Shown piece after piece: positions 9,604 to 31,906 of a DNA stretch of 64,000 nucleotides. The DNA lies in NCBI GenBank assembly GCA_020057295.1, contig JAGVGF010000006.1, positions 64,001-128,000 of the forward strand, read 5' to 3'. Made by a program: the position numbers and the translations under genes. The stretch is from an archaeon. GTDB lineage: Archaea > Nanobdellota > Nanobdellia > Woesearchaeales > UBA9642. Each line of letters opens with the position of its first letter. The first letter of the stretch is position 1. The notes beneath the pieces were generated by a model. That model was not told the origin of the DNA. It did no database searches and was given only the letters and a program-made list of their open reading frames with translations.

Positions 9604-10341
9604 ATGGTTGAAAAGGAAATCTCTGAAGAGGATTTGAAGAATATGTCTGCTGAAGAGATTGCAGAATTACAGAAACAAAATTGTATATTTTGTAAAATTG
9701 CTAGCAAGGAAATTCCTGCAAAAATAGTACACGAGGATTCTGATTGTATATGTATTCTCGATATTAATCCTGCATCTGAAGGACACATATTAGTATTTCC
9801 AAAAAAACATTATATGATTATGCCACATGTTCCTGAAGATATACTTGCTAAAATGTTTAAGAATGTTGAATTGATGTCACACACATTACTAAAAACATTA
9901 CAATGTAGAGGAACTACGGTGTTTGTTGCTAATGGAGTGGCTGCAGGTCAAAGAGCACCACATGTTCTTATACATGTTTTTCCTCGTCGAGAAAATGATG
10001 GTTTAGTTCAATTGCCTAAATATGAAATGAATGATGAACAAATTTCTAAATTAAAATCCTTGTTGAAACCTTATATTACACAAGTGTTTGGCGGAAAAAA
10101 ATCTACAATTAAAGAAGCTGAATTTATAGAGAAGAAAAACGAAAAGATAGAAGAAGATATTGTTAATGAAGAAGTTGTTAAAGAATTAAAAAATGATAAC
10201 GTAGAAGAAAAAGATTTGAAAAAAAATCTCAAGAAAAAATCCACAGATAATAAAAATAATGAAGATAAAAAAGAGATTAGCAAAGATAAAAACAAAGAAA
10301 AGAAATTAGATTTAGATGATATATCGAGGTTATTTGGATAA
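9604..10341 (+). CDS. HIT-family protein with degenerate triad and charged C-terminal tail
   Basis: CIFCKI, LDINPASEGH, GQRAPHVLIH. Confidence 0.85.
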   Translation: MVEKEISEEDLKNMSAEEIAELQKQNCIFCKIASKEIPAKIVHEDSDCICILDINPASEGHILVFPKKHYMIMPHVPEDILAKMFKNVELMSHTLLKTLQCRGTTVFVANGVAAGQRAPHVLIHVFPRRENDGLVQLPKYEMNDEQISKLKSLLKPYITQVFGGKKSTIKEAEFIEKKNEKIEEDIVNEEVVKELKNDNVEEKDLKKNLKKKSTDNKNNEDKKEISKDKNKEKKLDLDDISRLFG

Positions 10342-10883
10342 TGGAATGCGTTATTTGTAATAAAAATTTTGAAAATAATATTTTATTCGAAGATGATAAA
10401 ATTATAATAATGTTAGCTGTTGAACCATCAGTCAATGGACACATACAAATATTTTCTAGAGAACATCATACTATACTTGAGCAAGTGCCTCAAGATATTT
10501 TGAATTTAATGGTTAATGCTGCTAATAAAATTTCTATAATATTATTTGAATTATTAAAAGTTCACGGTACAAATATAATTGTTAATAATGGTGTTCCAGC
10601 GGGTCAAAAAATTCCGCATGTATCAATAGATATTTTACCTCGACGTACAGAAGATAATTTGAAACTTGATTGGACATTGAAACAAGCTCCTCCTGAAGCA
10701 CTTGATAGTATTCATAGAATTATTGAAGAGGGAATGAGTAAGTCTGACATTATAGCAGTTACAGATGATAAAAAAGAAGAATTCAAGAAAGAGATTAAAG
10801 AGGAAAAAGTCGAAGAAAGTAACGATCAACCTCGTGAAAAGAAAACTAATTATTATCAGCAGTTGTTTGAGAGAACTCCTTGA
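10341..10883 (+). CDS. HIT-family protein with degenerate triad
   Basis: CVIC, P..NGH, GQKIPHVSID; start overlaps the upstream stop codon. Confidence 0.8.
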   Translation: MECVICNKNFENNILFEDDKIIIMLAVEPSVNGHIQIFSREHHTILEQVPQDILNLMVNAANKISIILFELLKVHGTNIIVNNGVPAGQKIPHVSIDILPRRTEDNLKLDWTLKQAPPEALDSIHRIIEEGMSKSDIIAVTDDKKEEFKKEIKEEKVEESNDQPREKKTNYYQQLFERTP

Positions 10884-10989
10884 TTTTTATTAAAAAATTT
10901 GAGAAGTAAAGTTTTTTAAAATTTGTTAAAAAAATAAATTATCTATAATATTCTTCTAGAAATATTAGATCGGATTGCAAGCAATCAGA

Positions 10990-11184
10990 TTAGTATCCTT
11001 TCTTCTTCTTATAGCATTCTTTGCAAAAAACTGGTTTTCCTTCTGTTGGCTTGAATGGTACTTCACATTCTTGTCCACATTCAGAACACGTTGCTTTATG
11101 CATTTCTCTAGGGCCGAAATCTCTTCGGAAACCGCCACTGCTGCCTCCGCCTGAACTTCTACCGCCTCGATTGAATCCTTCCAT
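10990..11184 (-). CDS. CxxC-x17-CxxC zinc-ribbon protein with Gly/Arg-rich N-terminus
   Basis: REMHKATCSECG..CEVPFKP..GKPVFCKEC. Confidence 0.9.
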   Translation of the reverse strand: MEGFNRGGRSSGGGSSGGFRRDFGPREMHKATCSECGQECEVPFKPTEGKPVFCKECYKKKKGY

Positions 11185-11244
11185 GCGCTTACGCCTCCAT
11201 TATAATATAAGGAAGAAACTACTAGTTATAAAGGTGACGGTATT

Positions 11245-12111
11245 TTAGAATATACCAGCATAATACATTATTATCGTTGCTATAAACGCCATTAAGAATG
11301 CAGGTATAAAGGGTATACCTTCCTTGATTGTTACTGTTTTAATCTTTCCTTTTGCAGCATATTTTTTTAATAATACTATTTGTTCTCTTGATATTCCTAA
11401 ATCTTTTGGTCCTGTAATGCGTTTTTTATCAATCCTTACATCCTTGTATATCCAGTCACCTTCTGTTAATTTAGATATCGATATGTCCTTGACCATACAG
11501 CTCTCCTCAATAACTTTTACAAATAACCACACATAAAACATTACATAGAACATCGCAACGAAAGATAAAAGTATCAGCCTAAATTGTTCTGGAATAAATA
11601 AAAATACGCATAATAGTAGAATTATTGTCGTGAATAACATTACTCTTCTGATTAATAATATTTGACTTTTTTGTGACCACTCTGCTAAGCTTTTAATAAA
11701 TATTTTACGATTTTTTATGGCAAGACCTATACTCCATATTAGTCCATAAATTGCACCAAATAATATTATATTTGCTAGTAGAATTAATATCCAAAAATTA
11801 TCTTGACCGAATAATGGAAAAAAATTAAATCCTAAGACAGCGCCGAGACCCATTATTAGTTTACTATCTCCACCACCCCATTGTCCCATATAAAACATCG
11901 CGTATGCTATTATAAGTCCTACTATAAAACCCATAATTGATTGTGATATATAGGTGTAATCTAAATATACTATAGAATATATAACCGATATTCCTAACGC
12001 AATAAATGTTAGACCATATGAAATATAATCAGGAACTTCTCTCTTCTTTATATCTGTAATTGTTGAGATTACAAGAGCAACAAATGCAATGATTATAGCA
12101 ATTAAAAGCAT
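11245..12111 (-). CDS. A24 prepilin/prearchaellin peptidase (FlaK/PibD/EppA-like)
   Basis: TD...REVPD and GGGDSKL catalytic Asp motifs, C-terminal IPFIP, multiple TMs. Confidence 0.9.
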   Translation of the reverse strand: MLLIAIIIAFVALVISTITDIKKREVPDYISYGLTFIALGISVIYSIVYLDYTYISQSIMGFIVGLIIAYAMFYMGQWGGGDSKLIMGLGAVLGFNFFPLFGQDNFWILILLANIILFGAIYGLIWSIGLAIKNRKIFIKSLAEWSQKSQILLIRRVMLFTTIILLLCVFLFIPEQFRLILLSFVAMFYVMFYVWLFVKVIEESCMVKDISISKLTEGDWIYKDVRIDKKRITGPKDLGISREQIVLLKKYAAKGKIKTVTIKEGIPFIPAFLMAFIATIIMYYAGIF

Positions 12112-12216
12112 AAATCATATTTCAAGGCAGAGTATTTAAAGTTTATGAGTTTTAGTAACTCCCCCATAATAACACAATATTTATATATTAGTATATCTTT
12201 TAGTATATTGGTTTAT

Positions 12217-12558
12217 ATGCAAATTCATAAAATCTGCAATTTGTGCGGAACTGGATCTGAGGAAACAGCAATATTTACGTGTAACTATGCTAAAGGCGAG
12301 TTACAGATATGTTTAGGCTGCCTAGCAGAAGGAATTCTAGAAACTGCTGCACAAAACAAACCTAAAATTCCTGCAACTAAACAAAATCCTGAAATAATCG
12401 ATCCGATGCTGTTCGATTTAAGCATTCCAGACGAAGTTTACGGCTTTGCCTGCGAATCATGTAAAAACATTCTATTCGCTGATTCATTTCCAGTACAATG
12501 TGAATCATGCCAACACATCAATCACGAACACGTTCTAGAAAGACAAATTAAAAAATAA
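12217..12558 (+). CDS. Hypothetical double zinc-ribbon protein
   Basis: CNLC...CLGC and CESC...CESC; ATG at 12217 downstream of a TTTATATA box. Confidence 0.7.
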   Translation: MQIHKICNLCGTGSEETAIFTCNYAKGELQICLGCLAEGILETAAQNKPKIPATKQNPEIIDPMLFDLSIPDEVYGFACESCKNILFADSFPVQCESCQHINHEHVLERQIKK

Positions 12559-12571
12559 TCGAGACAATAAA

Positions 12572-12847
12572 ATGGAAGAAAAACACAGTTTATACATTGT
12601 AGGAATAGTTGGAATAGTAGCCGTTGTTGCACTAGTAATACTAACATTAGGCGGAAACCAAAACAACACATCAACATCAGAAGATCCAGCAGGACAAGCA
12701 ATGGTTGTTGCAGATAGCGTAGCAGGATGCTTCGTGTACTGTGATAATACATATGTTCCTCAAGGAGGAGCAGACGCTAGCGGAATACATCAAAACAGCG
12801 ATTGTAAAAATTGGTGCAGAGGATACTACAATAGATTCTTACAATAA
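12572..12847 (+). CDS. Small secreted or membrane-anchored Cys-containing protein
   Basis: TM (LYIVGIVGIVAVVALVIL), N/T/S linker, AGQA motif, four Cys. Confidence 0.7.
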   Translation: MEEKHSLYIVGIVGIVAVVALVILTLGGNQNNTSTSEDPAGQAMVVADSVAGCFVYCDNTYVPQGGADASGIHQNSDCKNWCRGYYNRFLQ

Positions 12848-12898
12848 AGTATAATTTTTTTTCATTAACTTTTTAATTCTTTAAACATTTAATCAATC

Positions 12899-13528
12899 AT
12901 GAAAGATAAATTCGATTGGAAAAAAATCGATAAAATAGTATATGATAGACTTCATGATGAAAAATCTGGCCACGATTATTCTCACGTTAAAAGAGTTTTT
13001 AGTAACGCTATGATTATTGCAAAATCTGAAAAAAAAGTAGATTATGATATTCTAAAAGCCGCATGTTTACTACACGATATAACAATGATTAATCCTAAAA
13101 CTCATCATGTTGAAAGTTCTATAACAGCTGGAAAGATACTCAAAGATATGAACATATCTGATAATAATATTTTGAAAATTCAGCATTGTATAATTAATCA
13201 TAATAGAAATTTTGGCAAAGAAAAACCACTTCCAAAATCTAAATTATCTATTGAAGCTAAAATATTGGTTGATGCAGATAATATTGATGCATTAGGAAGC
13301 ATAGGGATTGTTCGTATGATACAATTTTCTACAAGGCAAGGAGTTCCATTGTTTCATTCCAAAAACGATAAATTAGATACTACATTATATGGTAACATGA
13401 AATTTATGATAAATATATCTAACAAAATGCTAACAGTTTCTGGAACAAAACTTGCAAAGACCAGAGTTAAAGTAATGAATGATTTTCAGAAATGCTTAGC
13501 TGATGAATGTAAACAATCACATTTATAA
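12899..13528 (+). CDS. HD-domain phosphohydrolase
   Basis: GHDYSHVKRV, LLHDI, DADNIDALG. Confidence 0.9.
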   Translation: MKDKFDWKKIDKIVYDRLHDEKSGHDYSHVKRVFSNAMIIAKSEKKVDYDILKAACLLHDITMINPKTHHVESSITAGKILKDMNISDNNILKIQHCIINHNRNFGKEKPLPKSKLSIEAKILVDADNIDALGSIGIVRMIQFSTRQGVPLFHSKNDKLDTTLYGNMKFMINISNKMLTVSGTKLAKTRVKVMNDFQKCLADECKQSHL

Positions 13529-13550
13529 AATAATAATTGTTTCTATGCAT

Positions 13551-13711
13551 TACCAATGATTTGTGAGGCTCGAATGAGCTGAATGAGGTATTATATTTCT
13601 AATGTAATACCAAAGGTATATAGGGAGAACTTTGTTATTAACCGATAGCTTCGATGAAGTCGAACTATCAGTTTTAATAAAACTTTTCCTAAAAGTTTTG
13701 GAGGAATAAAA
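13551..13711 (+). promoter_or_regulatory. Structured 5' leader of rpl7ae with tandem kink-turns
   Basis: TACC-AAT-GA-TT...AAT-GA-GGTA and inner TGT-GA-GGCTC/GAGCT-GA; further hairpins at 13635-13680 and 13681-13697; TTTATAAA box about 25 nt upstream. Confidence 0.7.
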
Positions 13712-14011
13712 ATGGATCATAAAGGATACGAACTTGTTGAAATAGCAAGAAAAAGTGGAAAGATAAAGAAGGGAACTAATGAAGCAACTAAGATGGTTGA
13801 ACGTGGCACTGCAAAGGCAATAGTCTATGCAACAGACGTAACACCAAAAGAGATTGTGATGCATATTCCATTACTAGCAAAGGAAAAAGGCATACCATGC
13901 TTTGAAGTTCCTAGTAAGGAAGAGTTAGGTGCAGCAGCAGGTTTAACTAAACCAACAGCAGCTGTCGCAATAGTTGATGCAGGCGATGCTAAAGCATTAT
14001 TAAAAGAATAA
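13712..14011 (+). CDS. rpl7ae: 50S ribosomal protein L7Ae
   Basis: GKIKKGTNEATK, A.DVTP.EIV.H, ELGAAAG. Confidence 0.97.
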   Translation: MDHKGYELVEIARKSGKIKKGTNEATKMVERGTAKAIVYATDVTPKEIVMHIPLLAKEKGIPCFEVPSKEELGAAAGLTKPTAAVAIVDAGDAKALLKE

Positions 14012-14028
14012 ATTTTGAGGTCTAAAAA

Positions 14029-14340
14029 ATGGCTGATAACAAAAAGAAACCTATGAAATTCGACAATGCTCCGCAGCAAACTACTGCAAGCGAAGAGCGT
14101 AAGGGTGGTAGTGTAAACTTCACTTTAGCTGTTCCTGCAAAAGTTGAGGAAGTTGTTGGAAGAACAGGTACAAGAGGAGAAGCCACACAAGTACGATGTA
14201 AAATCCTAGACGGCAGAGACAAAAACAAAAGTATGAGAAGAAACGTTCGAGGACCAGTACAAGTTGGCGATATATTAATGCTTAGAGAAACAGAAATCGA
14301 AGCAAGACCATTAAACAAGATGGGTAGAGGAAACCAATAA
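14029..14340 (+). CDS. rps28e: 30S ribosomal protein S28e with N-terminal extension
   Basis: [14 protein letters not shown]...[21 protein letters not shown]. Confidence 0.95.
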
Positions 14341-14350
14341 AGGTGAAAAT

Positions 14351-14530
14351 ATGAAATGCTCATTTTGCAATAATGAAATGTCAAAAGGCACTGGTAAAAT
14401 GTACGTAAAAGTATCAGGCCAAATACTTTATTTCTGTTCAAGTAAGTGTGAAAAGAATATGTTAAAATTAGAAAGAATACCACGAGAACAAAAGTGGGTC
14501 AATAATGCTGTTGAAAAGAAAACTAAGTGA
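14351..14530 (+). CDS. rpl24e: 50S ribosomal protein L24e (absent from ORF track)
   Basis: Translated by hand: MKCSFC...GTGKMYV...FCSSKCEKN....R.PR..KW; AGGTGA RBS. Confidence 0.95.
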   Translation: MKCSFCNNEMSKGTGKMYVKVSGQILYFCSSKCEKNMLKLERIPREQKWVNNAVEKKTK

Positions 14531-14534
14531 GAAG

Positions 14535-15059
14535 ATGACAGATAAACCAAAAGTAGATCCGAACGAACCAATAATGCAGAGAACATTAATATTGTTCAAA
14601 CCAGATTCTGTACAACGAGCAATCGTTGGAAAAGTCTTACAAAGATTTGAAGATGCAGGATTTAAGATTGTTGGTATGAAAATGCGATGGATTGATAGAA
14701 ATTTCGGTAAGAAACACTATTTTGATGTTGCACAAAGACATGGCGAAATTGTACTCAATAGATTATTGAACAGTATTACTGAAGGACCAGTAATTGCAAT
14801 GGTATTGGAAGGAATATCTGCGGTTGAACAGGTAAGAAAAATTGTTGGAAGTACAGAACCAAAATCAGCTACGCCTGGAACAATAAGGGGAGATTTCGCG
14901 CAACACTCGTATGCTGTTGCAGATAGCAAAGATGTCGGTATAAAAAACATCGTGCACTCTTCTGGAAGCTTGAAAGATGCAGAATATGAAATCGCATTAT
15001 GGTTTACACCAGACGAACTTCACACATACAAGACAGTACATGAAATACATGTATTTTAA
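14535..15059 (+). CDS. ndk: Nucleoside diphosphate kinase
   Basis: RTL..FKPD, G.TEP....PGTIRGD, NIVHSS. Confidence 0.95.
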   Translation: MTDKPKVDPNEPIMQRTLILFKPDSVQRAIVGKVLQRFEDAGFKIVGMKMRWIDRNFGKKHYFDVAQRHGEIVLNRLLNSITEGPVIAMVLEGISAVEQVRKIVGSTEPKSATPGTIRGDFAQHSYAVADSKDVGIKNIVHSSGSLKDAEYEIALWFTPDELHTYKTVHEIHVF

Positions 15060-19650: not shown

Positions 19651-20118
19651 TTAATTTTCTATTAACGTCTCTAATGCTTTCAAAGCATAGAATTTTATAT
19701 CTTCTTTAATATCTTTTGCAGATTCTAATTCCTCACTAGTAAACCATTTACAGTTTTCTGTTTTTTCAGTTTCTGACAGAACAAGTTCATCTGTTTTCGC
19801 TTTAGCAAAAAATGTGAGTGTAACATGTTCATGATTCTCATTTATTCTGTGTCTATTCATGAATATTGGCGGTATAAGTTCTTTATAATTCGCATATTTC
19901 CATAAGGGATGATTATGATTAAAGTACAATTCAACATCTAATCCTACTTCTTCTTTAACTTCACGTATTGCCGCCTGATTTGGATCTTCATCTAGTTCGA
20001 TATGACCTCCGACGCTCAGCCATATATGATATTTATCATGCTTTCGTAAGAGAACCTTATTTTTATAAACAACAAAAACTTCTACACAGAAATCTATTTT
20101 TTCGTGAATGTGAGGCAT
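19651..20118 (-). CDS. NUDIX hydrolase
   Basis: GGHIELDEDPNQAAIREVKEEVG Nudix box. Confidence 0.92.
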   Translation of the reverse strand: MPHIHEKIDFCVEVFVVYKNKVLLRKHDKYHIWLSVGGHIELDEDPNQAAIREVKEEVGLDVELYFNHNHPLWKYANYKELIPPIFMNRHRINENHEHVTLTFFAKAKTDELVLSETEKTENCKWFTSEELESAKDIKEDIKFYALKALETLIEN

Positions 20119-20963: not shown

Positions 20964-22076
20964 TTATCTCACGCTAGTATATCCGCCCTTAATACCTTTC
21001 TTTGAGAATACTATCTGATATAATTGTATATTTCTACATCTAAACGAACCAGCGCAACTTAAAAGATAGTATCGCCACATACGATAAAATCTATCATCAT
21101 ATATCGGTTTTGTTCCTTTTAGTTCATGCCATGTTCTTTCAAAGTTTGCATGCCATCCCATCAATGTTTTATCATAATCAGCACCAAAATTGTGCCAGTC
21201 TTCAAGAGTAAAAAGTCCTTCAGCTGCTGCTGTAAGCTGTTTTGCTGATGGCAACATCGAATTAGGGAATATATACTTAGCAGTCCACGGTTCTGTAACA
21301 ACTACAGACTTATTTCCGGCAATAGTATGCAATAAGAATAATCCATGATCCTTCAAACATTTGTTTGCAAGCTCCATAAATGCTCGATAGTTCTTGTAAC
21401 CTATATGTTCACATAATCCTACAGATACTATACGATCAAACTGTCCGTGAGCTTCACGATAATCTGCTTCTATGAACGTTACAGGTAAACCTTTACACCA
21501 TTCTCTAGAATAAGCAATCTGTTCTTTACTAATATTGTAACTTACAACTTCACAACCGTATTCTTTTGCCATGAATCTTGCAAGTCCTCCGAATCCTCCT
21601 CCTAATTCAAGAACTCTCATTCCTTTTTTTAACTGAAGTTTTTCACATACTAATCTTAATTTTGCAACTTGTGCTTGATCTAATGTTTTTGCATTCTTCC
21701 AATATCCACAAGTGTACTGCATATTTTTGTCAAGCATTCTTGTGTACAATTCGTTTCCTAAATCGTAATGTTCCTGTGCTACAACTTTAGATTTAGATTT
21801 TGTTTGTTGATTAAACAATAACGATTTTATTGCTCCAGCCACAATTATTGTTTTTGAAACATGTTTATCTAATTCAGCATCTAATACTTTGTAGAAGAAT
21901 TGGTCTAAATCTTTTACATCCCACCAACCGTCCATATATGCTTCTCCAAGTCCTAAAGTACCTTGTGACAAAATTCTAGAGTATAAATTAGGATTATGTA
22001 CATGTATGTCCCACGTATTAGGACCATCAATTACGACTCCTGCATGATTCAACAATTTCTGTATTTTTTCTTTCAT
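20964..22076 (-). CDS. cfa: Cyclopropane-fatty-acyl-phospholipid synthase family SAM methyltransferase
   Basis: LGLGEAYMDGWW, HYDLGNELY, MQYTCGYW, KYIFP, RMWRYYLLSC; ATG at 22076 after GAGGT RBS. Confidence 0.93.
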   Translation of the reverse strand: MKEKIQKLLNHAGVVIDGPNTWDIHVHNPNLYSRILSQGTLGLGEAYMDGWWDVKDLDQFFYKVLDAELDKHVSKTIIVAGAIKSLLFNQQTKSKSKVVAQEHYDLGNELYTRMLDKNMQYTCGYWKNAKTLDQAQVAKLRLVCEKLQLKKGMRVLELGGGFGGLARFMAKEYGCEVVSYNISKEQIAYSREWCKGLPVTFIEADYREAHGQFDRIVSVGLCEHIGYKNYRAFMELANKCLKDHGLFLLHTIAGNKSVVVTEPWTAKYIFPNSMLPSAKQLTAAAEGLFTLEDWHNFGADYDKTLMGWHANFERTWHELKGTKPIYDDRFYRMWRYYLLSCAGSFRCRNIQLYQIVFSKKGIKGGYTSVR

Positions 22077-22144
22077 AATAAATACCTCGCATTTATTTTT
22101 TATATTTTTATTTCTTATATTTTGAATAATATCTGAGTTCAGAG

Positions 22145-23491
22145 TTATTTTCTCAAAACACATTTATCATACAAATTTTTAAATCTGTAATTAGCATCAT
22201 ATTTTTTCTTTAGTTTATCGTAAGTCTTTTTATTATATAACTCCCAAAATTTTTTCTCATCGTAATACGCTGTTGAATATAAAGATTTTTTTCCGCGGAG
22301 TTTCTCTACGATAAATTCTACTTTCTTGTTTAAGTATCCGTCTTCTTTACCTGTTTTTACTACATCCCAGAATCCAAAATTAATATATAATATTTCTGGT
22401 TTCATCACGTATAAATCGTATTTCGCTTTACCGTTAAGCGGTTGTGTTGGGCACATCCATACAGGAGCTATTCCTATCTCTTTTTGAAAAAAATCCAAAA
22501 ATTCTGGAGCGTTTGCTATAGGAATTTCTACATCTTGTATAACTGATTCTTTTTTTATTCCAAAAAATGCATCTATCTTTTCTAATATTTTAGTTTTTCC
22601 TGCAAATGCACGTATTTTCCAATAAGTTGTAGATTTCAAAAATTTCTTACCAACTAAAAATCTTACAATTTTATTTTGCACTCCAAAACTTGATGAACAC
22701 CAGAACCAGTCAGTATCCCATCTCCAGATATAATCTTTTATTGTTAAATAATCAGTAGTTTTTGTTTTTATCGATTTATAATAGATATTCATATAAGTAT
22801 AATCACTAACATAAGGAGCAGAGCTAACGCATTCTCCAATAGTTAGATACATTTCATTTTCACTAAATATAGATCCATCTACAAATGTCAAATCTTTTGA
22901 TTTTCTATATTTTTTACAATTAGAATTCACAGCATCAAAATAAGATTTAGAATTATCATATTTAGTGTGTGTTAACTTCACGTAAGGAAGTGTTTTTACA
23001 AGTTTGACTTTTAATCTTAATACATATCCAAATGTTCCGTAAGAGTTCGGAAATCCATAAAATAAATCTTTATATTTATTAGTTCTAGTGCATACGACTA
23101 TTCTTCCATCGCCAAGTAATAGTTCTAATTCTTCTATTGTTTCATGAACTAAGCCGTATTTGAATGATGAAGATTCAATCCCTCCACCAGTTGTTGCTCC
23201 TCCAATAGTTATGGATTTTAATTGTGGAACGACAGTCGGCATTAAACTATATTTTAGTGTCTCTTCTACTAATTCTTCGTACGTTGTCATTCCTTCTACA
23301 TCTGCTATAAGATTTTTTGAGTCAATATTAAGAACGTGATTAAAATTTTTTACATTAATCTTTTTTGCATTAACATCTCTGTGCCTAAACAGATTTGAAG
23401 TATCTTTCTGGAGAACAACTGCACCATCAATTGATTTAAATTCTTCTAATAGAATACGTTTACGTTCTTCAAAACCCCCATAACTATCCAT
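22145..23491 (-). CDS. FAD-binding oxidoreductase (PCMH fold; DHCR24/BfaA-TmsA-like)
   Basis: TSNLFR, VVPQLKSITIGGA..G.GIESSSF, FPNSYGT.GY, WRWDTDWFWCS, KSLYS. Confidence 0.88.
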   Translation of the reverse strand: MDSYGGFEERKRILLEEFKSIDGAVVLQKDTSNLFRHRDVNAKKINVKNFNHVLNIDSKNLIADVEGMTTYEELVEETLKYSLMPTVVPQLKSITIGGATTGGGIESSSFKYGLVHETIEELELLLGDGRIVVCTRTNKYKDLFYGFPNSYGTFGYVLRLKVKLVKTLPYVKLTHTKYDNSKSYFDAVNSNCKKYRKSKDLTFVDGSIFSENEMYLTIGECVSSAPYVSDYTYMNIYYKSIKTKTTDYLTIKDYIWRWDTDWFWCSSSFGVQNKIVRFLVGKKFLKSTTYWKIRAFAGKTKILEKIDAFFGIKKESVIQDVEIPIANAPEFLDFFQKEIGIAPVWMCPTQPLNGKAKYDLYVMKPEILYINFGFWDVVKTGKEDGYLNKKVEFIVEKLRGKKSLYSTAYYDEKKFWELYNKKTYDKLKKKYDANYRFKNLYDKCVLRK

Positions 23492-23542
23492 GAAATTATC
23501 AATAATAATGCTTTTAAAAAGGTTGCTAAAATGAAAGTATAA

Positions 23543-23667
23543 CGCCGACGCCCAGATTTGAACTGGGAAACCTTTCGGAAATGGTTCTTTTGGGCGAAAG
23601 ACCAAAAGTTTCGAAATAGCATTTCGCCATTCGAGACCATCGCAGTACCAGATTGTGCCACGCCGGC
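23543..23667 (-). tRNA. tRNA-Ser(CGA) with 43-nt intron at 37/38 (23587-23629)
   Basis: Acceptor GCCGGCG/CGTCGGC; ATGGT-CT-CGA-A|intron|A-ACCAT; long variable arm; D, variable and T arms identical to the tRNA-Ser at 30161. Confidence 0.9.
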
Positions 23668-23758
23668 ATAGTATATGAGATAGATAACATCTTATAAATT
23701 TTCTCGAAAAATATATAAAACAGCATTGGTTTCAAAAAGTATACTTGGAGGATTAAGA

Positions 23759-24001
23759 ATGGATGATATAGAACCTTACGATCACTTAAGAACAATATTA
23801 AGAGCAGAAGGATTCATGGCAGAAATATATAGAAGTACTAAAGGAATATATTTAGGAATACCTGTAGAGCAAATAGCTCAAGATAAAAATAAACAAAGCA
23901 TGGTTAAAGAAGCAATGGATAGAATTGCTGATGATTTAGGATTACATCCAGAAACTCATATATGTCAACACAGAATACAAATAAAATATTCTTTACTATA
24001 A
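23759..24001 (+). CDS. Hypothetical protein
   Basis: ORF with GGAGG RBS. Confidence 0.65.
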   Translation: MDDIEPYDHLRTILRAEGFMAEIYRSTKGIYLGIPVEQIAQDKNKQSMVKEAMDRIADDLGLHPETHICQHRIQIKYSLL

Positions 24002-24059
24002 ATATGCGGCAGCTAGAACATATCGATAATTTTTTATAGACATAATATTCTCTAAATGT

Positions 24060-24716
24060 ATGGCGTCTAAACCTATAATTATTCCAGACAATAACAATAA
24101 TTATTCAATTGAACAATTAAGCGTTCCAACACATTATCGTGAATATTTAAGTAATGTAATGATTCCAAGAGGTCTTATAAAAGATCGTATTGAAAAACTT
24201 GCTCAAGAAATTCACGAAGATTATCAAGATAAAAGTATACATTTAGTGTGTGTATTGAAAGGTGGAGAAAAGATTTTTGCTGATTTAACAAATAGTTTAC
24301 ACACGTTAAATAGCAGATATGGTCAGAAAAGCATTCCTATAACACATGACTTCATCAAAGCTTCAAGCTACATCAATACACAGACAAGTGGTTCAGTAAA
24401 TGTATCTACAGATCATAAACAATTAGAAAGTCTCAAAGATAAACATATACTTCTCGTTGAGGACATAATCGATACTGGAAAAACGATAGTTGCATTGAAG
24501 GAAATAATATCGAAGCACAATCCTAAATCATTAAAGGTAATTAGCCTATTAATTAAACGAATTAATCACAGTAATGGTTTTGTTCCAGATTATTGTGGAT
24601 TTTCTATACCAAACGAATTTGTCGTTGGATACTGTCTTGATTATAATGAACATTTTAGAGATTTACAACACATATGTGTTCTCAATACTCTTGGAAAGAA
24701 TTCATTCAAAGCATAA
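24060..24716 (+). CDS. hpt: Hypoxanthine(-guanine) phosphoribosyltransferase, eukaryote-like
   Basis: CVLKGG, SY loop, LLVEDIIDTGKT PRPP motif, FVVGYCLDYNE.FRDL.HIC. Confidence 0.95.
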   Translation: MASKPIIIPDNNNNYSIEQLSVPTHYREYLSNVMIPRGLIKDRIEKLAQEIHEDYQDKSIHLVCVLKGGEKIFADLTNSLHTLNSRYGQKSIPITHDFIKASSYINTQTSGSVNVSTDHKQLESLKDKHILLVEDIIDTGKTIVALKEIISKHNPKSLKVISLLIKRINHSNGFVPDYCGFSIPNEFVVGYCLDYNEHFRDLQHICVLNTLGKNSFKA

Positions 24717-24735: not shown

Positions 24736-25953
24736 TTATTTCTTATAAGCTGCTTCTAGTATTCTGGAATAGTTTCTACTAATAAAATTAGAAAGATGCA
24801 ATAACGCTTCTCCGCCAATACCTGCTGTATTCAATCTTGATGTTCCATTTTCAGTTATCATAAATTGATTTACGAAGTGTCCAGATCCATCAGTTAGCCA
24901 TCTAATTGAATCATCAGTTGTTTTTTTATCTGCTTCCTTTCCACCTAGGAACATCTTTTTTGAACCATCACCATAGGTTTTTATTTCTATTCCAGCATCT
25001 GCAATTCTATTTTTTGGAAGAGATACATCTAAATGTTGTAATCCAATCTGTGGATTAAGGTGTCCGTCAACCCATTTTAGCACAACATCTATTTTTTCTC
25101 CATAAACACCTATTGCAAGATATTTTGCAGTTATTGATTTGCCATCAGTACTAATTCTTGCACGAATACGGCTCTGATCTGAACCAGATTTTAATTTTAC
25201 AATAGTTTCTCTACGACCATAAGTATCGTTATCAATATATGCTTCAGAATCTAAGATTTTTTCTAATGCATCTAAATTTAATTCTGATGAAGGATAATAA
25301 GCTCCAACATATCCTGTGAAAAAATGGAATAAAGGATACTCTCTTAAAATTGCAGCCTTTGAAGATGCATCTATTAAAGCATAAGCAAACACAGGATCTC
25401 CTACGGATAGATTTAATGGAATAGTATTTCCAATTGCGGCAGATTGTGTATGATTTTTGACAAGATGTGCAGCTTCTATATATTTTTCTTTAAATGTTTC
25501 TGTTACATCTACTTTAGCAATACTGTGTTTTAGTTGTTCAAAAAATTCTTGTGGAAGAAATCTTAACGGATAGCTTAAGCCGTATGCTTCTATAGCTGCT
25601 CTCTCAACAAGAAATTGTGATATATCTGGATGTAAGCTATCTAAATGTTGTTCAAATTTTCTAAGATTACCCATTCCTTCAAGTACAATGTCAGCTCTAG
25701 GGAAACTAAACTGTGATTCTGCTATATGATATATTTCTGCAAATGTTATAAGCTTTTTTCTTAATACATCCACACTTCCATTCATTATTTTAGCAGCATT
25801 TCCATTCATAGAACCAGATTCTAGCATATGGTCTATTCCTTTAAAACGTGTATCTTTATAGAAATCTACGGATTTTTTTAATATAGCACCAGCTACTTGT
25901 GTATCTCTTTGAAACTGTTCAAGATTCTTTAATAGTGTACTATTGTCGACCAT
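24736..25953 (-). CDS. Hypothetical protein
   Basis: 405-aa ORF with RBS; no recognised motif. Confidence 0.75.
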   Translation of the reverse strand: MVDNSTLLKNLEQFQRDTQVAGAILKKSVDFYKDTRFKGIDHMLESGSMNGNAAKIMNGSVDVLRKKLITFAEIYHIAESQFSFPRADIVLEGMGNLRKFEQHLDSLHPDISQFLVERAAIEAYGLSYPLRFLPQEFFEQLKHSIAKVDVTETFKEKYIEAAHLVKNHTQSAAIGNTIPLNLSVGDPVFAYALIDASSKAAILREYPLFHFFTGYVGAYYPSSELNLDALEKILDSEAYIDNDTYGRRETIVKLKSGSDQSRIRARISTDGKSITAKYLAIGVYGEKIDVVLKWVDGHLNPQIGLQHLDVSLPKNRIADAGIEIKTYGDGSKKMFLGGKEADKKTTDDSIRWLTDGSGHFVNQFMITENGTSRLNTAGIGGEALLHLSNFISRNYSRILEAAYKK

Positions 25954-26029: not shown

Positions 26030-26398
26030 CTACAAACCTTCACGAAGAACTTCAAAATCAGAATAATCTTGCAACAATTCATCTCCTTTTTTTATATCTG
26101 TTTTGGCAAATATTTTTCCAAAAGATTTTGCATAAATATTAGGATTCTTAGAATGATTACAGAATCTAATATCGTCATGCGATAAATGCCACATATTCTT
26201 GTTTTTATCTAAATAACCATAGTGTTTAAAGAATTCTTTATACTTATCCGTAAGAATGTCAAATTCTTTTACAGAAAGCCATACATCAAGATCATGATTA
26301 GGAGTATAAACCAATTCTCCCTTAGAAATATCTTCATTAGCAAATACACCAGCGCCATGAATCCTACTCTTTCCAACCTTAATCTCTACGTGAAACAT
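26030..26398 (-). CDS. Minimal SET-domain protein
   Basis: SRIHGAGVFA..DI.KG, RFCNHS..PN, ELLQDY. Confidence 0.9.
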   Translation of the reverse strand: MFHVEIKVGKSRIHGAGVFANEDISKGELVYTPNHDLDVWLSVKEFDILTDKYKEFFKHYGYLDKNKNMWHLSHDDIRFCNHSKNPNIYAKSFGKIFAKTDIKKGDELLQDYSDFEVLREGL

Positions 26399-30413: not shown

Positions 30414-30809
30414 CTACATGCTTCTTAATTTTTTAGCTAAGTCTTCTAATACTTTCGGGTCAGCTTTTTTTGCTAGACAAGGATCTAAATCATTAACGTT
30501 ATTCACAGGAACAAGATGTAAATGCACATGGTCAACAGAAATTCCTTCAATAGCCAAACCTATCTTTTTAGCTTGAGTTACTTCTTTTAATTTAACAGAC
30601 AATTTTTTTGCAGTCTTAAATAATTCAGAGTAGAGTGGGTCATCAACGTCAAAAATATATTCTTGATGTTCTTTAGGAAGCAATAATGTGTGACCAGGAT
30701 GCATCGGATTAATGTCTAGAAATGCATATGTTTTTTCATCTTCATATATCTTATAACTAGGAATTTCTCCCTTGATGATTTTACAGAATATACAATCATC
30801 TTTTTTCAT
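30414..30809 (-). CDS. HIT-family hydrolase (intact triad)
   Basis: DCIFCKI, FLDINP..PGH, HVHLHLVP. Confidence 0.93.
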   Translation of the reverse strand: MKKDDCIFCKIIKGEIPSYKIYEDEKTYAFLDINPMHPGHTLLLPKEHQEYIFDVDDPLYSELFKTAKKLSVKLKEVTQAKKIGLAIEGISVDHVHLHLVPVNNVNDLDPCLAKKADPKVLEDLAKKLRSM

Positions 30810-31510: not shown

Positions 31511-31906
31511 TCAGGTTTTTAAAGTTTGCTCTTTATCCTCTTGATTCTTAAAGAACAACCATCCATTTTTAGCCTTAAGAAATTTTAATAAAGTATATCT
31601 GCCTTTTAGTTTCTTACCATGTAGGACAAATACGAATTTATTATCATGAACACTTTCCATCTCGTAAAAGCCATTATCCCATATTTTTACTGAACCTTTA
31701 CCATAGCCTTCCTTTATTTCTCCATGAAATGTTGCATAAGAAAGCGCATGATCATCTACTAATATTGCAAGTCTTTTTACACCTTCTTCAACTGATGGCT
31801 CTTTTGGAACGGCCCAAGATTTTAGAACACCATCTAATTCAAGACGAAAATCCCAATGTAAACGTGTAGCATGATGTTCTTGAACTACAAATATTAGTTT
31901 TTTCAT
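31511..31906 (-). CDS. Stand-alone LigD-type DNA 3'-phosphoesterase
   Basis: FVVQEHHATRLHWDFRLE..GVLKSWAVPK, RLA..V.DH...Y, YG.G.V.IWD.G. Confidence 0.92.
   Translation of the reverse strand: MKKLIFVVQEHHATRLHWDFRLELDGVLKSWAVPKEPSVEEGVKRLAILVDDHALSYATFHGEIKEGYGKGSVKIWDNGFYEMESVHDNKFVFVLHGKKLKGRYTLLKFLKAKNGWLFFKNQEDKEQTLKT

What the first reader, a model, noticed from the sequence alone, without database searches (positions are those of the whole stretch)
24060..24716. Eukaryote-type HPRT in a DPANN genome
Seen: a 218-aa protein with an N-terminal extension (IIIPD....Y......VPTHY...L..VMIP.GLI.DR.E.LA..I) and a C-terminus DYNEHFRDLQHICVL...GK..FKA. Established, from recalled sequences: animal and apicomplexan HPRTs have these extensions (human VISDDE.GY.....IPNHY...L..[31 protein letters not shown]...GK.KYKA), whereas bacterial Hpt of about 180 aa lacks them. 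Inference: gene transfer between a eukaryote and this archaeal lineage, or an unrecognised prokaryotic sister clade of eukaryotic HPRT, serving purine salvage in a probable auxotroph.
Basis: partly seen in the sequence, partly recalled or inferred. Interest (0 to 1): 0.8.

Follow-up and report, generated by a model that had tools for sequence, protein, structure and literature searches.

The report
Human-type purine salvage enzyme in DPANN archaeon
A tiny-genome archaeon carries an intact purine-recycling enzyme built like the human and malaria-parasite version, and its relatives hold half-way forms, so this "eukaryotic" design may have an archaeal origin.

Summary
ORF 24060-24716 (+) encodes a 218-aa hypoxanthine-guanine phosphoribosyltransferase. 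It matches human HGPRT end to end (212 bits; bacterial Hpt about 90-108 bits, from residue ~30 only). All 11 catalytic positions checked are intact, and the model superposes on human HGPRT (TM 0.91/0.95).

The host is archaeal: aEF-2, aEF-1alpha and archaeal GluRS lie on the same 244-kb contig. A same-order genome is titled Candidatus Woesearchaeota. The gene's composition is native.

The long form is rare and patchy: 6 of 401 genomes of the order, 5 of 401 in the phylum sample, 2 of 10 in the genus.

In trees the query clade is not nested in any sampled eukaryotic crown group, and an alliance with fungi is rejected (AU p 0.009). The base of the long-form clade consists of DPANN enzymes that carry the N-terminal extension but keep bacterial-like states elsewhere.

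The direction of the ancient link is unresolved (AU p 0.069). PurD, the GMP synthase C-domain and PNP were not found; PRPP synthase and PurA are present. This fits dependence on purine salvage.

The parts
24060..24716 (+). Coding sequence of the long-form hypoxanthine-guanine phosphoribosyltransferase (218 aa plus stop)
   Evidence: ORF. PF00156 at 91.7 bits. TIGR01203 HGPRTase at 184.6 bits, cut-off 150. Human HGPRT at 211.8 bits end to end. Model pLDDT 89.5, TM 0.91/0.95 to 6bnj.
24060..24185 (+). N-terminal extension, residues 1-42 up to invariant R43; hallmark 1 of the long form
   Evidence: 42 residues precede R43, against a median of 17 in 10 bacterial Hpt and 46 in 22 named eukaryotes. 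Aligns to human residues 5-43.
24303..24332 (+). Approximate position of the loop insertion between the LKGG helix and the SY flexible loop (about residues 82-91); hallmark 2
   Evidence: 34 residues lie between G68 and S103, against 24 in all 10 bacterial rows and a median of 34 in named eukaryotes. The exact borders are read from the alignment by eye.
24450..24485 (+). PRPP-binding motif LLVEDIIDTGKT (residues 131-142) with E134, D135, D138
   Evidence: Invariant E134, D135, D138 in the 27-row alignment A1. Aligned to human vediidtgkt.
24555..24560 (+). K166-R167 ('LLIKR'); K166 aligns to the human 6-oxopurine-recognising lysine; KR rather than bacterial KP is hallmark 3
   Evidence: KR in 3 of 3 query-clade genomes and 18 of 22 named eukaryotes (4 KK); KP in 9 of 10 bacteria and 2 of 2 L087/L093. 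The role of the lysine is recalled, not tested.
24660..24713 (+). C-terminal tail after R200 (18 residues, DLQHICVLNTLGKNSFKA); hallmark 4
   Evidence: Tail of 18 residues, against a median of 13.5 in bacteria, 14 in L087/L093 and 20 in named eukaryotes. Helix 210-216 in the model.
24030..24038 (+). TTTTTTATA, a TATA-box-like element about 26 nt upstream of the ATG (possible archaeal promoter of a leaderless or short-leader mRNA)
   Evidence: Read directly from the sequence. The function is inferred and was not tested.
22145..23605 (-). FAD_binding_4 oxidoreductase, the divergent upstream neighbour that travels with the HPRT gene (database form 448 aa, so the true start is probably internal)
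   Evidence: PF01565. Adjacent to HPRT in the same arrangement in same-genus genome G363 (71% identity) and not found in 4 other same-genus genomes. Named relatives are prokaryotic only.

Best explanation
The ORF encodes a working 6-oxopurine phosphoribosyltransferase (HGPRT). It uses PRPP and Mg2+ to turn scavenged hypoxanthine and guanine into IMP and GMP. The host is a small-genome Woesearchaeota-type archaeon that appears unable to make purines de novo or to make GMP from IMP. The enzyme has the full 'long' architecture otherwise known from animals, fungi, stramenopiles and apicomplexans: N-terminal extension, loop insertion, KR motif and C-terminal tail. It is a resident archaeal gene, not a recent import. 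It belongs to a small clade of long-form HPRTs scattered patchily among genomes of this DPANN order, and it has probably moved among them as part of an accessory block. That clade stands beside the eukaryotic enzymes, not inside any sampled eukaryotic group. Other DPANN genomes hold intermediate forms that have the extension only. My favoured reading is that the long form was built stepwise in DPANN-like archaea, and that eukaryotic HPRT shares that ancestry or was acquired from it. Shown: the sequence, fold and catalytic residues; the archaeal host; native composition; patchy distribution; exclusion from fungi; the intermediate character states. Inferred: enzymatic activity and substrate range, auxotrophy, and above all the direction of the ancient archaeon-eukaryote link.
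For: Function:
- TIGR01203 scores 184.6 bits against a cut-off of 150.
- Human HGPRT matches at 211.8 bits over residues 4-218.
- The 11 positions K67 G68 S103 Y104 E134 D135 D138 K166 F187 D194 R200 are all identical to 22 of 22 named eukaryotes.
- The AlphaFold model (pLDDT 89.5) superposes on human 6bnj at TM 0.91/0.95 and 1.3 A over 217 columns, and on Plasmodium and Toxoplasma enzymes at TM 0.94-0.95.

Metabolic context in G000:
- Present: PRPP synthase at 378 bits, PurA at 352.7 bits, an IMPDH-family gene at 250.8 bits.
- Not found: GMP_synt_C, GARS_A above its cut-off, PNP_UDP_1.
- This is the only HPRT in the genome.

Resident gene:
- It lies mid-contig in a 244-kb contig with aEF-2, aEF-1alpha and archaeal GluRS.
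- GC is 0.301 and GC3 0.196, against 0.315+-0.026 and 0.201+-0.031 for 528 long ORFs. Codon-usage distance falls at the 0.6th percentile.

Distribution:
- 6 of 401 genomes of the order carry a full-length match and 5 of 401 in the phylum sample.
- 2 of 10 genomes in the genus and 4 of 11 in family f61 carry it.

Phylogeny:
- The careful tree (93 rows) gives a long-form clade at 100/98, with L087/L093 from same-order genomes at its base (99/97 for the remainder). The query clade has 94/90 and lies outside the opisthokont core (95/94), the stramenopiles (92/94) and the alveolates (100/96).
- Query clade plus fungi is rejected (dlnL 63.3, p-AU 0.009).
- With 37 more short and intermediate rows, the N-extended forms still make a grade below a 100-supported long clade. 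The three named ones are a Nanoarchaeota MAG and two Woesearchaeota. g61 falls outside a group of query clade plus eukaryotes supported at 95.

Characters (N-lead / loop / K-x motif / tail):
- Bacteria: 17 / 24 / KP / 13.5.
- L087 and L093: 43-44 / 23-26 / KP / 14.
- L096: 54 / 28 / KR / 17.
- g61: 41-42 / 27-33 / KR / 17-20.
- Query clade: 42 / 32-34 / KR / 18-19.
- Named eukaryotes: 46 / 34 / KR or KK / 20.
Against: - The backbone inside the long-form clade is a polytomy in the careful tree.
- Monophyly of the 9 labelled DPANN long or N-extended rows costs 32 lnL units but is not rejected at 0.05 (p-AU 0.069). Monophyly of named eukaryotes is not rejected either (p 0.465). A simple two-clade picture, which says nothing about direction, therefore remains allowed.
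- Many 'grade' branches are long (about 1.0 or more), so attraction to the outgroup is possible. L096 has a deviant composition, and in the quick tree it falls among SAR eukaryotes.
- Most environmental rows could not be labelled. Some deep members of the 'query clade' (P0125, P0130, P0134, P0155, P0180, P0205) could be unsampled eukaryotes.
- Eukaryote sampling covers fungi, animals, stramenopiles/oomycetes and one alveolate, plus unnamed EukProt/MMETSP rows. No named Amoebozoa, Excavata, Archaeplastida or Asgard archaea were included.
- The patchy distribution in an accessory block is what horizontal acquisition would also produce.
- Activity was not assayed.
- The AU groups were fixed by taxonomy or BLAST rank, but were written down after the first trees had been seen.
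Confidence: 0.55

Rival explanations
1. Ancient transfer from a stem or early eukaryote into a Woesearchaeota-type archaeon, followed by spread among DPANN genomes. Under this reading the long form was invented on the eukaryotic side, and the archaeal long forms are secondary.
For: - Patchy distribution: 6 of 401 in the order, 2 of 10 in the genus, 4 of 11 in f61.
- The gene lies in an accessory block shared only with G363.
- Neither eukaryote monophyly (p 0.465) nor DPANN monophyly (p 0.069) is rejected.
- L096 groups with SAR eukaryotes in one quick tree.
- The long form is far more widespread and diverse in eukaryotes.
Against: - DPANN genomes hold N-extended intermediates. These share the extension but keep the bacterial-like KP motif, short loop and short tail, and they sit at the base of the long clade with 99/97 support.
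- g61 falls outside a group of query clade plus eukaryotes at SH-aLRT 95.
- Forcing DPANN monophyly costs 32 lnL units.
- The co-travelling neighbour is prokaryotic.
Confidence: 0.3
2. Recent transfer from a crown eukaryote such as a fungus or an animal, the top named hits in the database search.
For: The best named hits are fungi (Smittium, Catenaria, Coemansia) and cephalopods at 49-52% identity. The Atlas nearest clusters are 98-100% Eukaryota.
Against: - Identity to any named eukaryote is only about 45-52%.
- Query clade plus fungi is rejected (p-AU 0.009).
- The query clade lies outside the opisthokont core, which has 95/94 support.
- GC, GC3 and codon usage are fully native.
- The gene is shared at 54-78% identity by genomes of two other families and genera.
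Confidence: 0.04
3. Assembly or binning artefact: a eukaryotic fragment wrongly joined to an archaeal genome.
For: None found beyond the eukaryote-like best hits.
Against: - The gene lies at position 88,060 of a 243,751-bp contig, with archaeal translation genes 5-9 kb away.
- There are no introns and the composition is native.
- The same gene with the same neighbour occurs in an independent same-genus genome.
- Contamination is rated at 0.46%.
Confidence: 0.01

Closest known systems
Human HGPRT (HPRT1; PDB 1bzy, 6bnj) and the apicomplexan HG(X)PRTs (Plasmodium 1cjb/3ozf, Toxoplasma 1fsg)
   Same: Same length class (218 aa against 217-233 aa). The match runs end to end (211.8 bits to human, 186 bits to P. 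falciparum). It has the same four architectural hallmarks and identical residues at the 11 catalytic positions checked. The fold is the same (TM 0.91-0.95, rmsd 1.3-1.5 A).
   Different: Only about 45% identical in the structural alignment. It is encoded in an archaeal genome without introns. It is placed outside the sampled eukaryotic crown groups. Substrate range (xanthine or not) and oligomeric state are unknown.
Bacterial Hpt (about 175-185 aa; e.g. E. coli-type 1g9s, 5knr; NCBIfam PRK09162)
   Same: Same type I PRTase core, PRPP motif and catalytic residues. The reaction is presumably the same. TIGR01203 covers both.
   Different: Bacterial Hpt lacks the N-terminal extension (17 against 42 residues before R43), the loop insertion (24 against 34) and the longer tail (13.5 against 18), and has KP instead of KR. 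It matches only from residue ~30, at 90-108 bits. The query scores 97.4 bits against NF006605/PRK09162, below the 181-bit cut-off.
N-extended DPANN HPRTs of the L087/L093 type (G185, G013; NCBI-named Nanoarchaeota and Woesearchaeota proteins P0273, P0274, P0337)
   Same: A homologous N-terminal extension (P-I-x-I ... VP..Y ... L..V[LM]IPRGLI..R..KL). The taxonomic neighbourhood is the same. They sit at the base of the long-form clade.
   Different: They keep bacterial-like LLDKPSRR, have no loop insertion, and end in a short VLKEEVYK-type tail. They are 37-39% identical to the query.
Typical archaeal purine PRTases (Pyrococcus horikoshii 1vdm; Sulfolobus GpT-2 4z1o)
   Same: Type I PRTase fold and purine salvage role, as named by the depositors.
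   Different: They are barely related to the query: 26.4 and 23.3 bits, covering the PRPP motif region only.

Membership tests
HGPRTase (NCBIfam TIGR01203, equivalog) / type I phosphoribosyltransferase (Pfam PF00156) | Profile score above the curated cut-off | tested here: met
   TIGR01203 scores 184.6 bits against a cut-off of 150. PF00156 scores 91.7 bits against 26.3.
HGPRTase (NCBIfam TIGR01203, equivalog) / type I phosphoribosyltransferase (Pfam PF00156) | PRPP-binding motif and catalytic/purine-binding residues (human K68, G69, S103, Y104, E133, D134, D137, K165, F186, D193, R199; roles recalled from the literature) | tested here: met
   All 11 aligned positions are identical to human and to 22 of 22 named eukaryotes (alignment; string KGSYEDDKFDR; invariant columns).
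HGPRTase (NCBIfam TIGR01203, equivalog) / type I phosphoribosyltransferase (Pfam PF00156) | Catalysis of hypoxanthine/guanine + PRPP -> IMP/GMP + PPi | not testable with these tools
   Needs an enzyme assay or complementation test.
Long-form ('eukaryote-type') HPRT architecture | N-terminal extension of about 25-30 residues ahead of the core, homologous to human residues 5-35 | tested here: met
   Query residues 4-218 align to human residues 5-217. 42 residues precede R43, against 17 in bacteria.
Long-form ('eukaryote-type') HPRT architecture | Loop insertion after the LKGG helix, KR motif, and extended C-terminal tail ending GK..[FY]K | tested here: met
   Loop of 34 residues against 24; KR; tail of 18 against 13.5.
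Long-form ('eukaryote-type') HPRT architecture | Whole-chain fold match to solved long-form enzymes | tested here: met
   TM 0.91/0.95 to human 6bnj over 217 columns; 0.94-0.95 to Plasmodium and Toxoplasma; model pLDDT 89.5.
Eukaryotic HPRT clade (phylogenetic membership in a crown group) | Nested within a named eukaryotic lineage | tested here: not met
   The query clade (94/90) lies outside the opisthokont core (95/94), the stramenopiles and the alveolates. Joining it to fungi is rejected, p-AU 0.009. Other supergroups were not sampled.
Bacterial short Hpt (NCBIfam NF006605 / PRK09162) | Profile score above the cut-off; about 180 aa without extensions | tested here: not met
   97.4 bits against a cut-off of 181. 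The protein is 218 aa with all four long-form hallmarks.

The most novel reading that the evidence does not exclude
The long-form HPRT of eukaryotes, the lineage of the human Lesch-Nyhan enzyme and of the apicomplexan drug-target enzymes, was assembled stepwise in Woesearchaeota-like DPANN archaea. The order was the N-terminal extension first, then the KR motif and tail, then the loop insertion. It reached the eukaryotic stem from there. Living DPANN genomes still preserve each intermediate stage. This would be a DPANN, not Asgard or bacterial, contribution to the eukaryotic gene set.
Probability: 0.4. Interest if true: 0.75.

Novelty: new member of a known kind. Interest (0 to 1): 0.55.

Why it matters
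The long HPRT architecture is usually treated as a eukaryotic trait. Finding intact, natively composed copies in DPANN archaea, together with archaeal half-way forms, gives a concrete, testable case for where a well-studied eukaryotic enzyme came from. It could be an example of gene flow between DPANN archaea and early eukaryotes, in whichever direction. It also identifies how these small-genome archaea, which seem unable to make purines or to convert IMP to GMP, obtain both IMP and GMP from scavenged bases. A prokaryotic long-form HGPRT would be an easily expressed comparator for the human and Plasmodium enzymes. In five full-text searches and passages of two papers I found no report of this form in DPANN.

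Tried and rejected
The environmental rows P0003-P0026, P0121-P0268 therefore stay unlabelled.
- The genome-contig scan was likewise dominated by the short type; of the 80 loci kept, only L002 was long-form.
- The viral scan gave one giant-virus-MAG contig (L191), which falls inside the opisthokont-containing clade. It is not a donor candidate for the query.
- The two Atlas calls (35, 73) returned only eukaryotic clusters of 50 or more members, with no archaeal label.
- The search of earlier findings held nothing relevant.
- I suspected from memory that the FAD-binding neighbour was a eukaryote-like DHCR24 relative. One search shows prokaryotic named relatives only and one search gives only weak VAO-family hits, so the idea of a 'eukaryotic gene island' was dropped.
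- The 405-aa downstream ORF has no family and no match in 5 same-genus genomes.
- Gene context is not conserved between G000 and G087.
- Contamination and recent-import readings were rejected on contig position and composition.

Rows left out of the trees:
- Five bacterial extracts with uncertain starts (L030, L070, L079, L080, L081).
- L090, which has an internal stop.
- For the 93-row careful tree, also L012, L051, L078, L101, L109, P0230, P0254 (long branches) and about 200 redundant or unlabelled rows of the 293 assembled.
Full report
**The observation.** One search lists a single ORF at 24060..24716 on the + strand: 218 aa, ATG start. Pfam gives PF00156 (91.7 bits). NCBIfam gives the HGPRTase equivalog TIGR01203 at 184.6 bits against a cut-off of 150. 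The bacterial-type model NF006605 stays below its cut-off (97.4 against 181).

Against all PDB chains the best matches are human HGPRT (211.8 bits, E 9e-62, query 4-218 on human 5-217). Next come human PRTFDC1, Plasmodium (184-186 bits), Schistosoma-sized and Toxoplasma enzymes, all end to end. Bacterial Hpt chains of 177-207 aa match only from about residue 28-33, at 90-108 bits. Typical archaeal purine PRTases (1vdm, 4z1o) reach only 23-26 bits.

**The host.**
- The window carries aEF-2 (TIGR00490, 1016.6 bits), aEF-1alpha (TIGR00483, 650.2 bits) and archaeal GluRS (TIGR00463, 520.2 bits), each above its curated cut-off. It also has TrmB-family regulators and five tRNAs.
- The window is C3:64001-128000 of a 1.20-Mb, 6-contig genome rated 100% complete and 0.46% contaminated. 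The contig is 243,751 bp.
- G087, in the same order by the tool's grouping, is identical at this locus to L002. Its record is titled 'Candidatus Woesearchaeota archaeon'. The GTDB-style order name is my inference from that title.
- HPRT has GC 0.301 and GC3 0.196, against 0.315+-0.026 and 0.201+-0.031 for 528 long ORFs of the genome.
- Its size-matched codon-usage distance lies at the 0.6th percentile, so it is as typical as a gene can be. Contamination or a recent import is therefore very unlikely.

**What the protein is and does.** In a 27-row alignment of the query with its nearest relatives, R43, G68, S103, Y104, E134, D135 and D138 are invariant. K166, F187, V188, D194 and R200 are nearly so. 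By the human alignment these are K68/G69, S103/Y104, E133/D134/D137, K165, F186/V187, D193 and R199. I recall these from the HGPRT literature as the pyrophosphate, flexible-loop, Mg/ribose, catalytic-base, 6-oxo-recognition, purine-stacking and Mg residues; their roles were not tested here. The 11-position string is identical in the query and in 22 of 22 named eukaryotes.

An AlphaFold2 model built on that alignment has mean pLDDT 89.5 and pTM 0.86. Foldseek puts human HGPRT first (6bnj_B: TM 0.91/0.95, rmsd 1.3 A, 217 columns, 45% identity). Plasmodium and Toxoplasma enzymes follow at TM 0.94-0.95. I conclude, by inference from these tests, that the protein is an active hypoxanthine/guanine PRTase. 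Whether it also takes xanthine cannot be told.

**Metabolic setting.**

| Family searched in G000 | Result |
|---|---|
| PRPP synthase | present, 378 bits |
| Adenylosuccinate synthase (PurA) | present, 352.7 bits |
| IMPDH family | present, 250.8 bits |
| AIRS domain | one gene only |
| PF00156 | three matches: this gene, PRPP synthase, one weak 28-bit hit |
| GMP synthase C-domain | not found |
| GARS_A (PurD) | nothing above cut-off |
| PNP_UDP_1 | not found |

Each of these families was found in all 14 control genomes. The query protein finds no second HPRT in the genome. This pattern suggests that IMP and GMP both have to come from scavenged bases through this enzyme, with AMP made from IMP via PurA. 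That is an inference from a handful of family searches, not a full pathway census. Passages of PMC8421398 say that Woesearchaeota generally have minimal capacity to synthesize nucleotides; the word 'salvage' does not occur in that paper.

**Distribution.**
- Among the 120 best of 2581 hits in the 5.8-billion-protein collection, 25 environmental proteins (P0002-P0026, 51-81% identity) come first. Named hits then appear, and every one is a eukaryote at about 45-52% identity: fungi, cephalopods, chelicerates, rotifers, oomycetes, stramenopile algae, Amoebophrya.
- An exhaustive phmmer scan of 1.84 billion cluster representatives finds only 148 at E<=1e-30.
- In 401 genomes of the order, 57 have any HPRT-like match at E<=1e-5. 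Only 6 have a full-length, high-scoring one: G000, G363 (same genus, 78%), G087 (54%) and G327, G361, G060 (one genus, 43-47%).
- A phylum-wide sample of 401 high-quality genomes adds no carrier outside the order (5 of 401 at E<=1e-35).
- Within the query's genus 2 of 10 genomes carry it. In family f61, 4 of 11 carry it, adding G598. f87 holds only G087.
- All but one of the genomes with a match have a single match (G296 has two), so in its carriers the long form replaces the short form rather than adding to it.

**Neighbourhood.**
- The divergent upstream gene, a FAD_binding_4 oxidoreductase, sits next to HPRT in the same arrangement in G363 (71% identity). It is not found in four other same-genus genomes.
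- The downstream 405-aa ORF matches none of five same-genus genomes.
- Two database relatives, HPRT P0005 and oxidoreductase P0390, share the same longest-contig length of 306,468 bp. This suggests, but does not show, a third genome with the pair.
- The oxidoreductase's named relatives are Nanoarchaeota, Woesearchaeota, Patescibacteria/Parcubacteria, Legionella and Gammaproteobacteria. No named row among the 120 listed is a eukaryote.
- The next gene is a bacterial-type cyclopropane-fatty-acid synthase (PRK11705, 557 bits).
- In G087 the neighbours are unrelated: a MetK-type SAM synthetase, an Lhr helicase and an EamA transporter.

HPRT thus lies in a variable, mosaic block of prokaryotic make-up. 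That fits lateral movement among DPANN genomes and gives no hint of a eukaryotic donor.

**Phylogeny.** I assembled 293 rows:
- the query;
- open frames extracted from genome loci;
- 31 eukaryote-labelled proteins (26 named to genus, five EukProt/MMETSP rows);
- the environmental proteins;
- bacterial Hpt.

A FastTree of 291 rows, a PMSF quick tree of 114 rows, a careful IQ-TREE search of 93 rows (LG+C20+F+G4 PMSF, 218 columns) and a quick tree of 108 rows with 37 extra short and intermediate sequences agree on the following points, rooted on bacterial Hpt.

1. A long-form clade is strongly supported (100/98).
2. Its first branches are N-extended enzymes from same-order genomes (L087 from G185, L093 from G013); the remainder has 99/97 support. 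In one search this base widens into a grade that includes the only three NCBI-named proteins of that type: one 'Nanoarchaeota archaeon' and two 'Candidatus Woesearchaeota archaeon'. Beyond them, the list turns into ordinary ~180-aa bacterial Hpt.
3. The query, G363 and G087, with close environmental rows, form one clade (94/90). It lies outside the opisthokont core (95/94), the stramenopiles (92/94) and the alveolates (100/96).
4. The order of branching among the query clade, the g61 clade, L096 and the eukaryotic groups is unresolved in the careful tree. The two quick trees put the query clade as sister to a clade of all named eukaryotes (SH-aLRT 92, 95), with g61 outside.

AU tests on the careful tree:

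| Constraint | dlnL | p-AU | Outcome |
|---|---|---|---|
| Named eukaryotes as one clade | 2.9 | 0.465 | not rejected |
| The nine labelled DPANN long or N-extended rows as one clade | 32.1 | 0.069 | disfavoured, not rejected |
| Query clade plus fungi as one clade | 63.3 | 0.009 | rejected |

**Characters.** Four architectural hallmarks separate long from short forms (alignment; counts over the 93 rows). They are the residues before R43, the residues between G68 and S103, the dipeptide at 166-167, and the residues after R200.

| Group | Before R43 | G68 to S103 | 166-167 | After R200 |
|---|---|---|---|---|
| Bacteria (10) | 17 | 24 | KP (9 of 10) | 13.5 |
| L087, L093 | 43-44 | 23-26 | KP | 14 |
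| L096 | 54 | 28 | KR | 17 |
| g61 genomes (3) | 41-42 | 27-33 | KR | 17-20 |
| Query-clade genomes (3) | 42 | 32-34 | KR | 18-19 |
| Named eukaryotes (22) | 46 | 34 | KR 18, KK 4 | 20 |

The g61 genomes also carry a private insertion of about 12 residues after the PRPP motif. The L087/L093 extension is recognisably homologous to the long-form one. Yet their LLDKPSRR and VLKEEVYK motifs match the bacterial consensus, which would be an odd result of mere fast evolution from a long form. This series is partly independent of the tree's long-branch problem, and it is my main reason for favouring an origin of the long form among DPANN-like archaea.

**Caveats.**
- Many branches in the grade are long.
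- L096 deviates in composition, and it sits among SAR eukaryotes.
- Most environmental rows are unlabelled, because look-ups of their contigs were unavailable (look-up of encoding contigs closed) and the metagenome scan was saturated by short Hpt.
- No named Amoebozoa, excavates, Archaeplastida or Asgard archaea are in the trees.
- The AU groups were written down after the first trees had been seen.

The direction of the ancient archaeon-eukaryote link is therefore favoured, not shown.

**Literature.** Five full-text searches found no report of a eukaryote-type HPRT in DPANN: 'hypoxanthine phosphoribosyltransferase'+DPANN; HGPRT+phylogenetic+HGT+archaea; Woesearchaeota+'purine salvage' (no papers); HPRT/eukaryotic-like/archaea/DPANN; and phosphoribosyltransferase/Woesearchaeota/Nanoarchaeota/eukaryot. 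Passages of PMC11068357 state that HGPRT is present in bacteria and archaea and discuss transfers into insects, not this case. Subscription journals are not covered, and I did not open supplementary files.

**Verdict.** This is an intact, natively composed, long-form HGPRT in a Woesearchaeota-type genome that serves purine salvage. As an enzyme it is a new member of a known kind. The notable part is evolutionary. A small, patchy DPANN clade, together with archaeal intermediates, stands next to the eukaryotic HPRTs. A recent eukaryotic donor is excluded for fungi and unlikely in general. The origin of the 'eukaryotic' architecture becomes directly testable.

Noticed in passing
window 20964-22163 (-): A bacterial-type cyclopropane-fatty-acyl-phospholipid synthase (NCBIfam PRK11705, 557 bits against a cut-off of 400; PDB 6bqc, 416 bits) in an archaeal genome. 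The enzyme normally acts on unsaturated fatty-acyl phospholipids, so its substrate here is unclear. It overlaps the FAD-binding gene by 19 bases on the same strand.
   Followed up: partly
window 22145-23605 (-); L278 (G363:C99:248-1657): A FAD_binding_4 oxidoreductase of unknown substrate that co-occurs with HPRT in two same-genus genomes. Its close relatives (53-63% identity) lie in Nanoarchaeota, Patescibacteria, Legionella and Gammaproteobacteria, a distribution typical of genes shared among small-genome symbionts.
   Followed up: partly
window 24736-25953 (-): A 405-aa ORF convergent on HPRT. It has no Pfam or NCBIfam match and no match in five same-genus genomes, yet its codon usage is native (GC3 0.143).
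   Followed up: partly
window 26030-26398 (-): A 122-aa SET-domain protein (PF00856, 51.3 bits), a family better known from eukaryotic histone methyltransferases, two genes downstream of HPRT.
   Followed up: no
window 9604-15059, 19651-20118 and 30414-30809: A neighbourhood rich in nucleotide-handling genes: three HIT-family proteins (two in tandem at 9604-10883), an HD-domain protein, nucleoside diphosphate kinase, and a NUDIX hydrolase.
   Followed up: no
window 23726-24001 (+): A 91-aa ORF with no family match fills most of the 454-bp gap between the FAD-binding gene and HPRT. The corresponding gap in G363 is only about 290 bp.
   Followed up: no
L002 6763-7908 (-) (genome G087): A bacterial/eukaryotic-type (MetK) S-adenosylmethionine synthetase, with all three Pfam domains, lies directly upstream of the long-form HPRT in the named Woesearchaeota MAG. 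By my recollection archaea usually have a different SAM synthetase family.
   Followed up: no
L084, L085, L086, L279 (genus g61): The long-form HPRTs of this genus share a private insertion of about 12 residues right after the PRPP-binding motif (DSGKTITGYTKPNKEKVPG-type). Some have replaced the lysine aligned to K67 with E or Q.
   Followed up: partly
L191 5001-5612 (IMG/VR giant-virus MAG contig, 7.5 kb): A long-form HPRT (44% identical to the query) on a contig binned as a giant virus. In the trees it sits in the opisthokont-containing eukaryotic clade.
   Followed up: partly
L096 (genome G192): A same-order genome whose HPRT has a 54-residue N-terminal lead, KR and a 17-residue tail, but deviant composition. 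Its position jumps between trees: a polytomy, among SAR eukaryotes. It may reflect a separate transfer or a long-branch artefact.
   Followed up: partly
window 31511-31906 (-): A stand-alone LigD 3'-phosphoesterase domain protein (PF13298, 126.6 bits).
   Followed up: no
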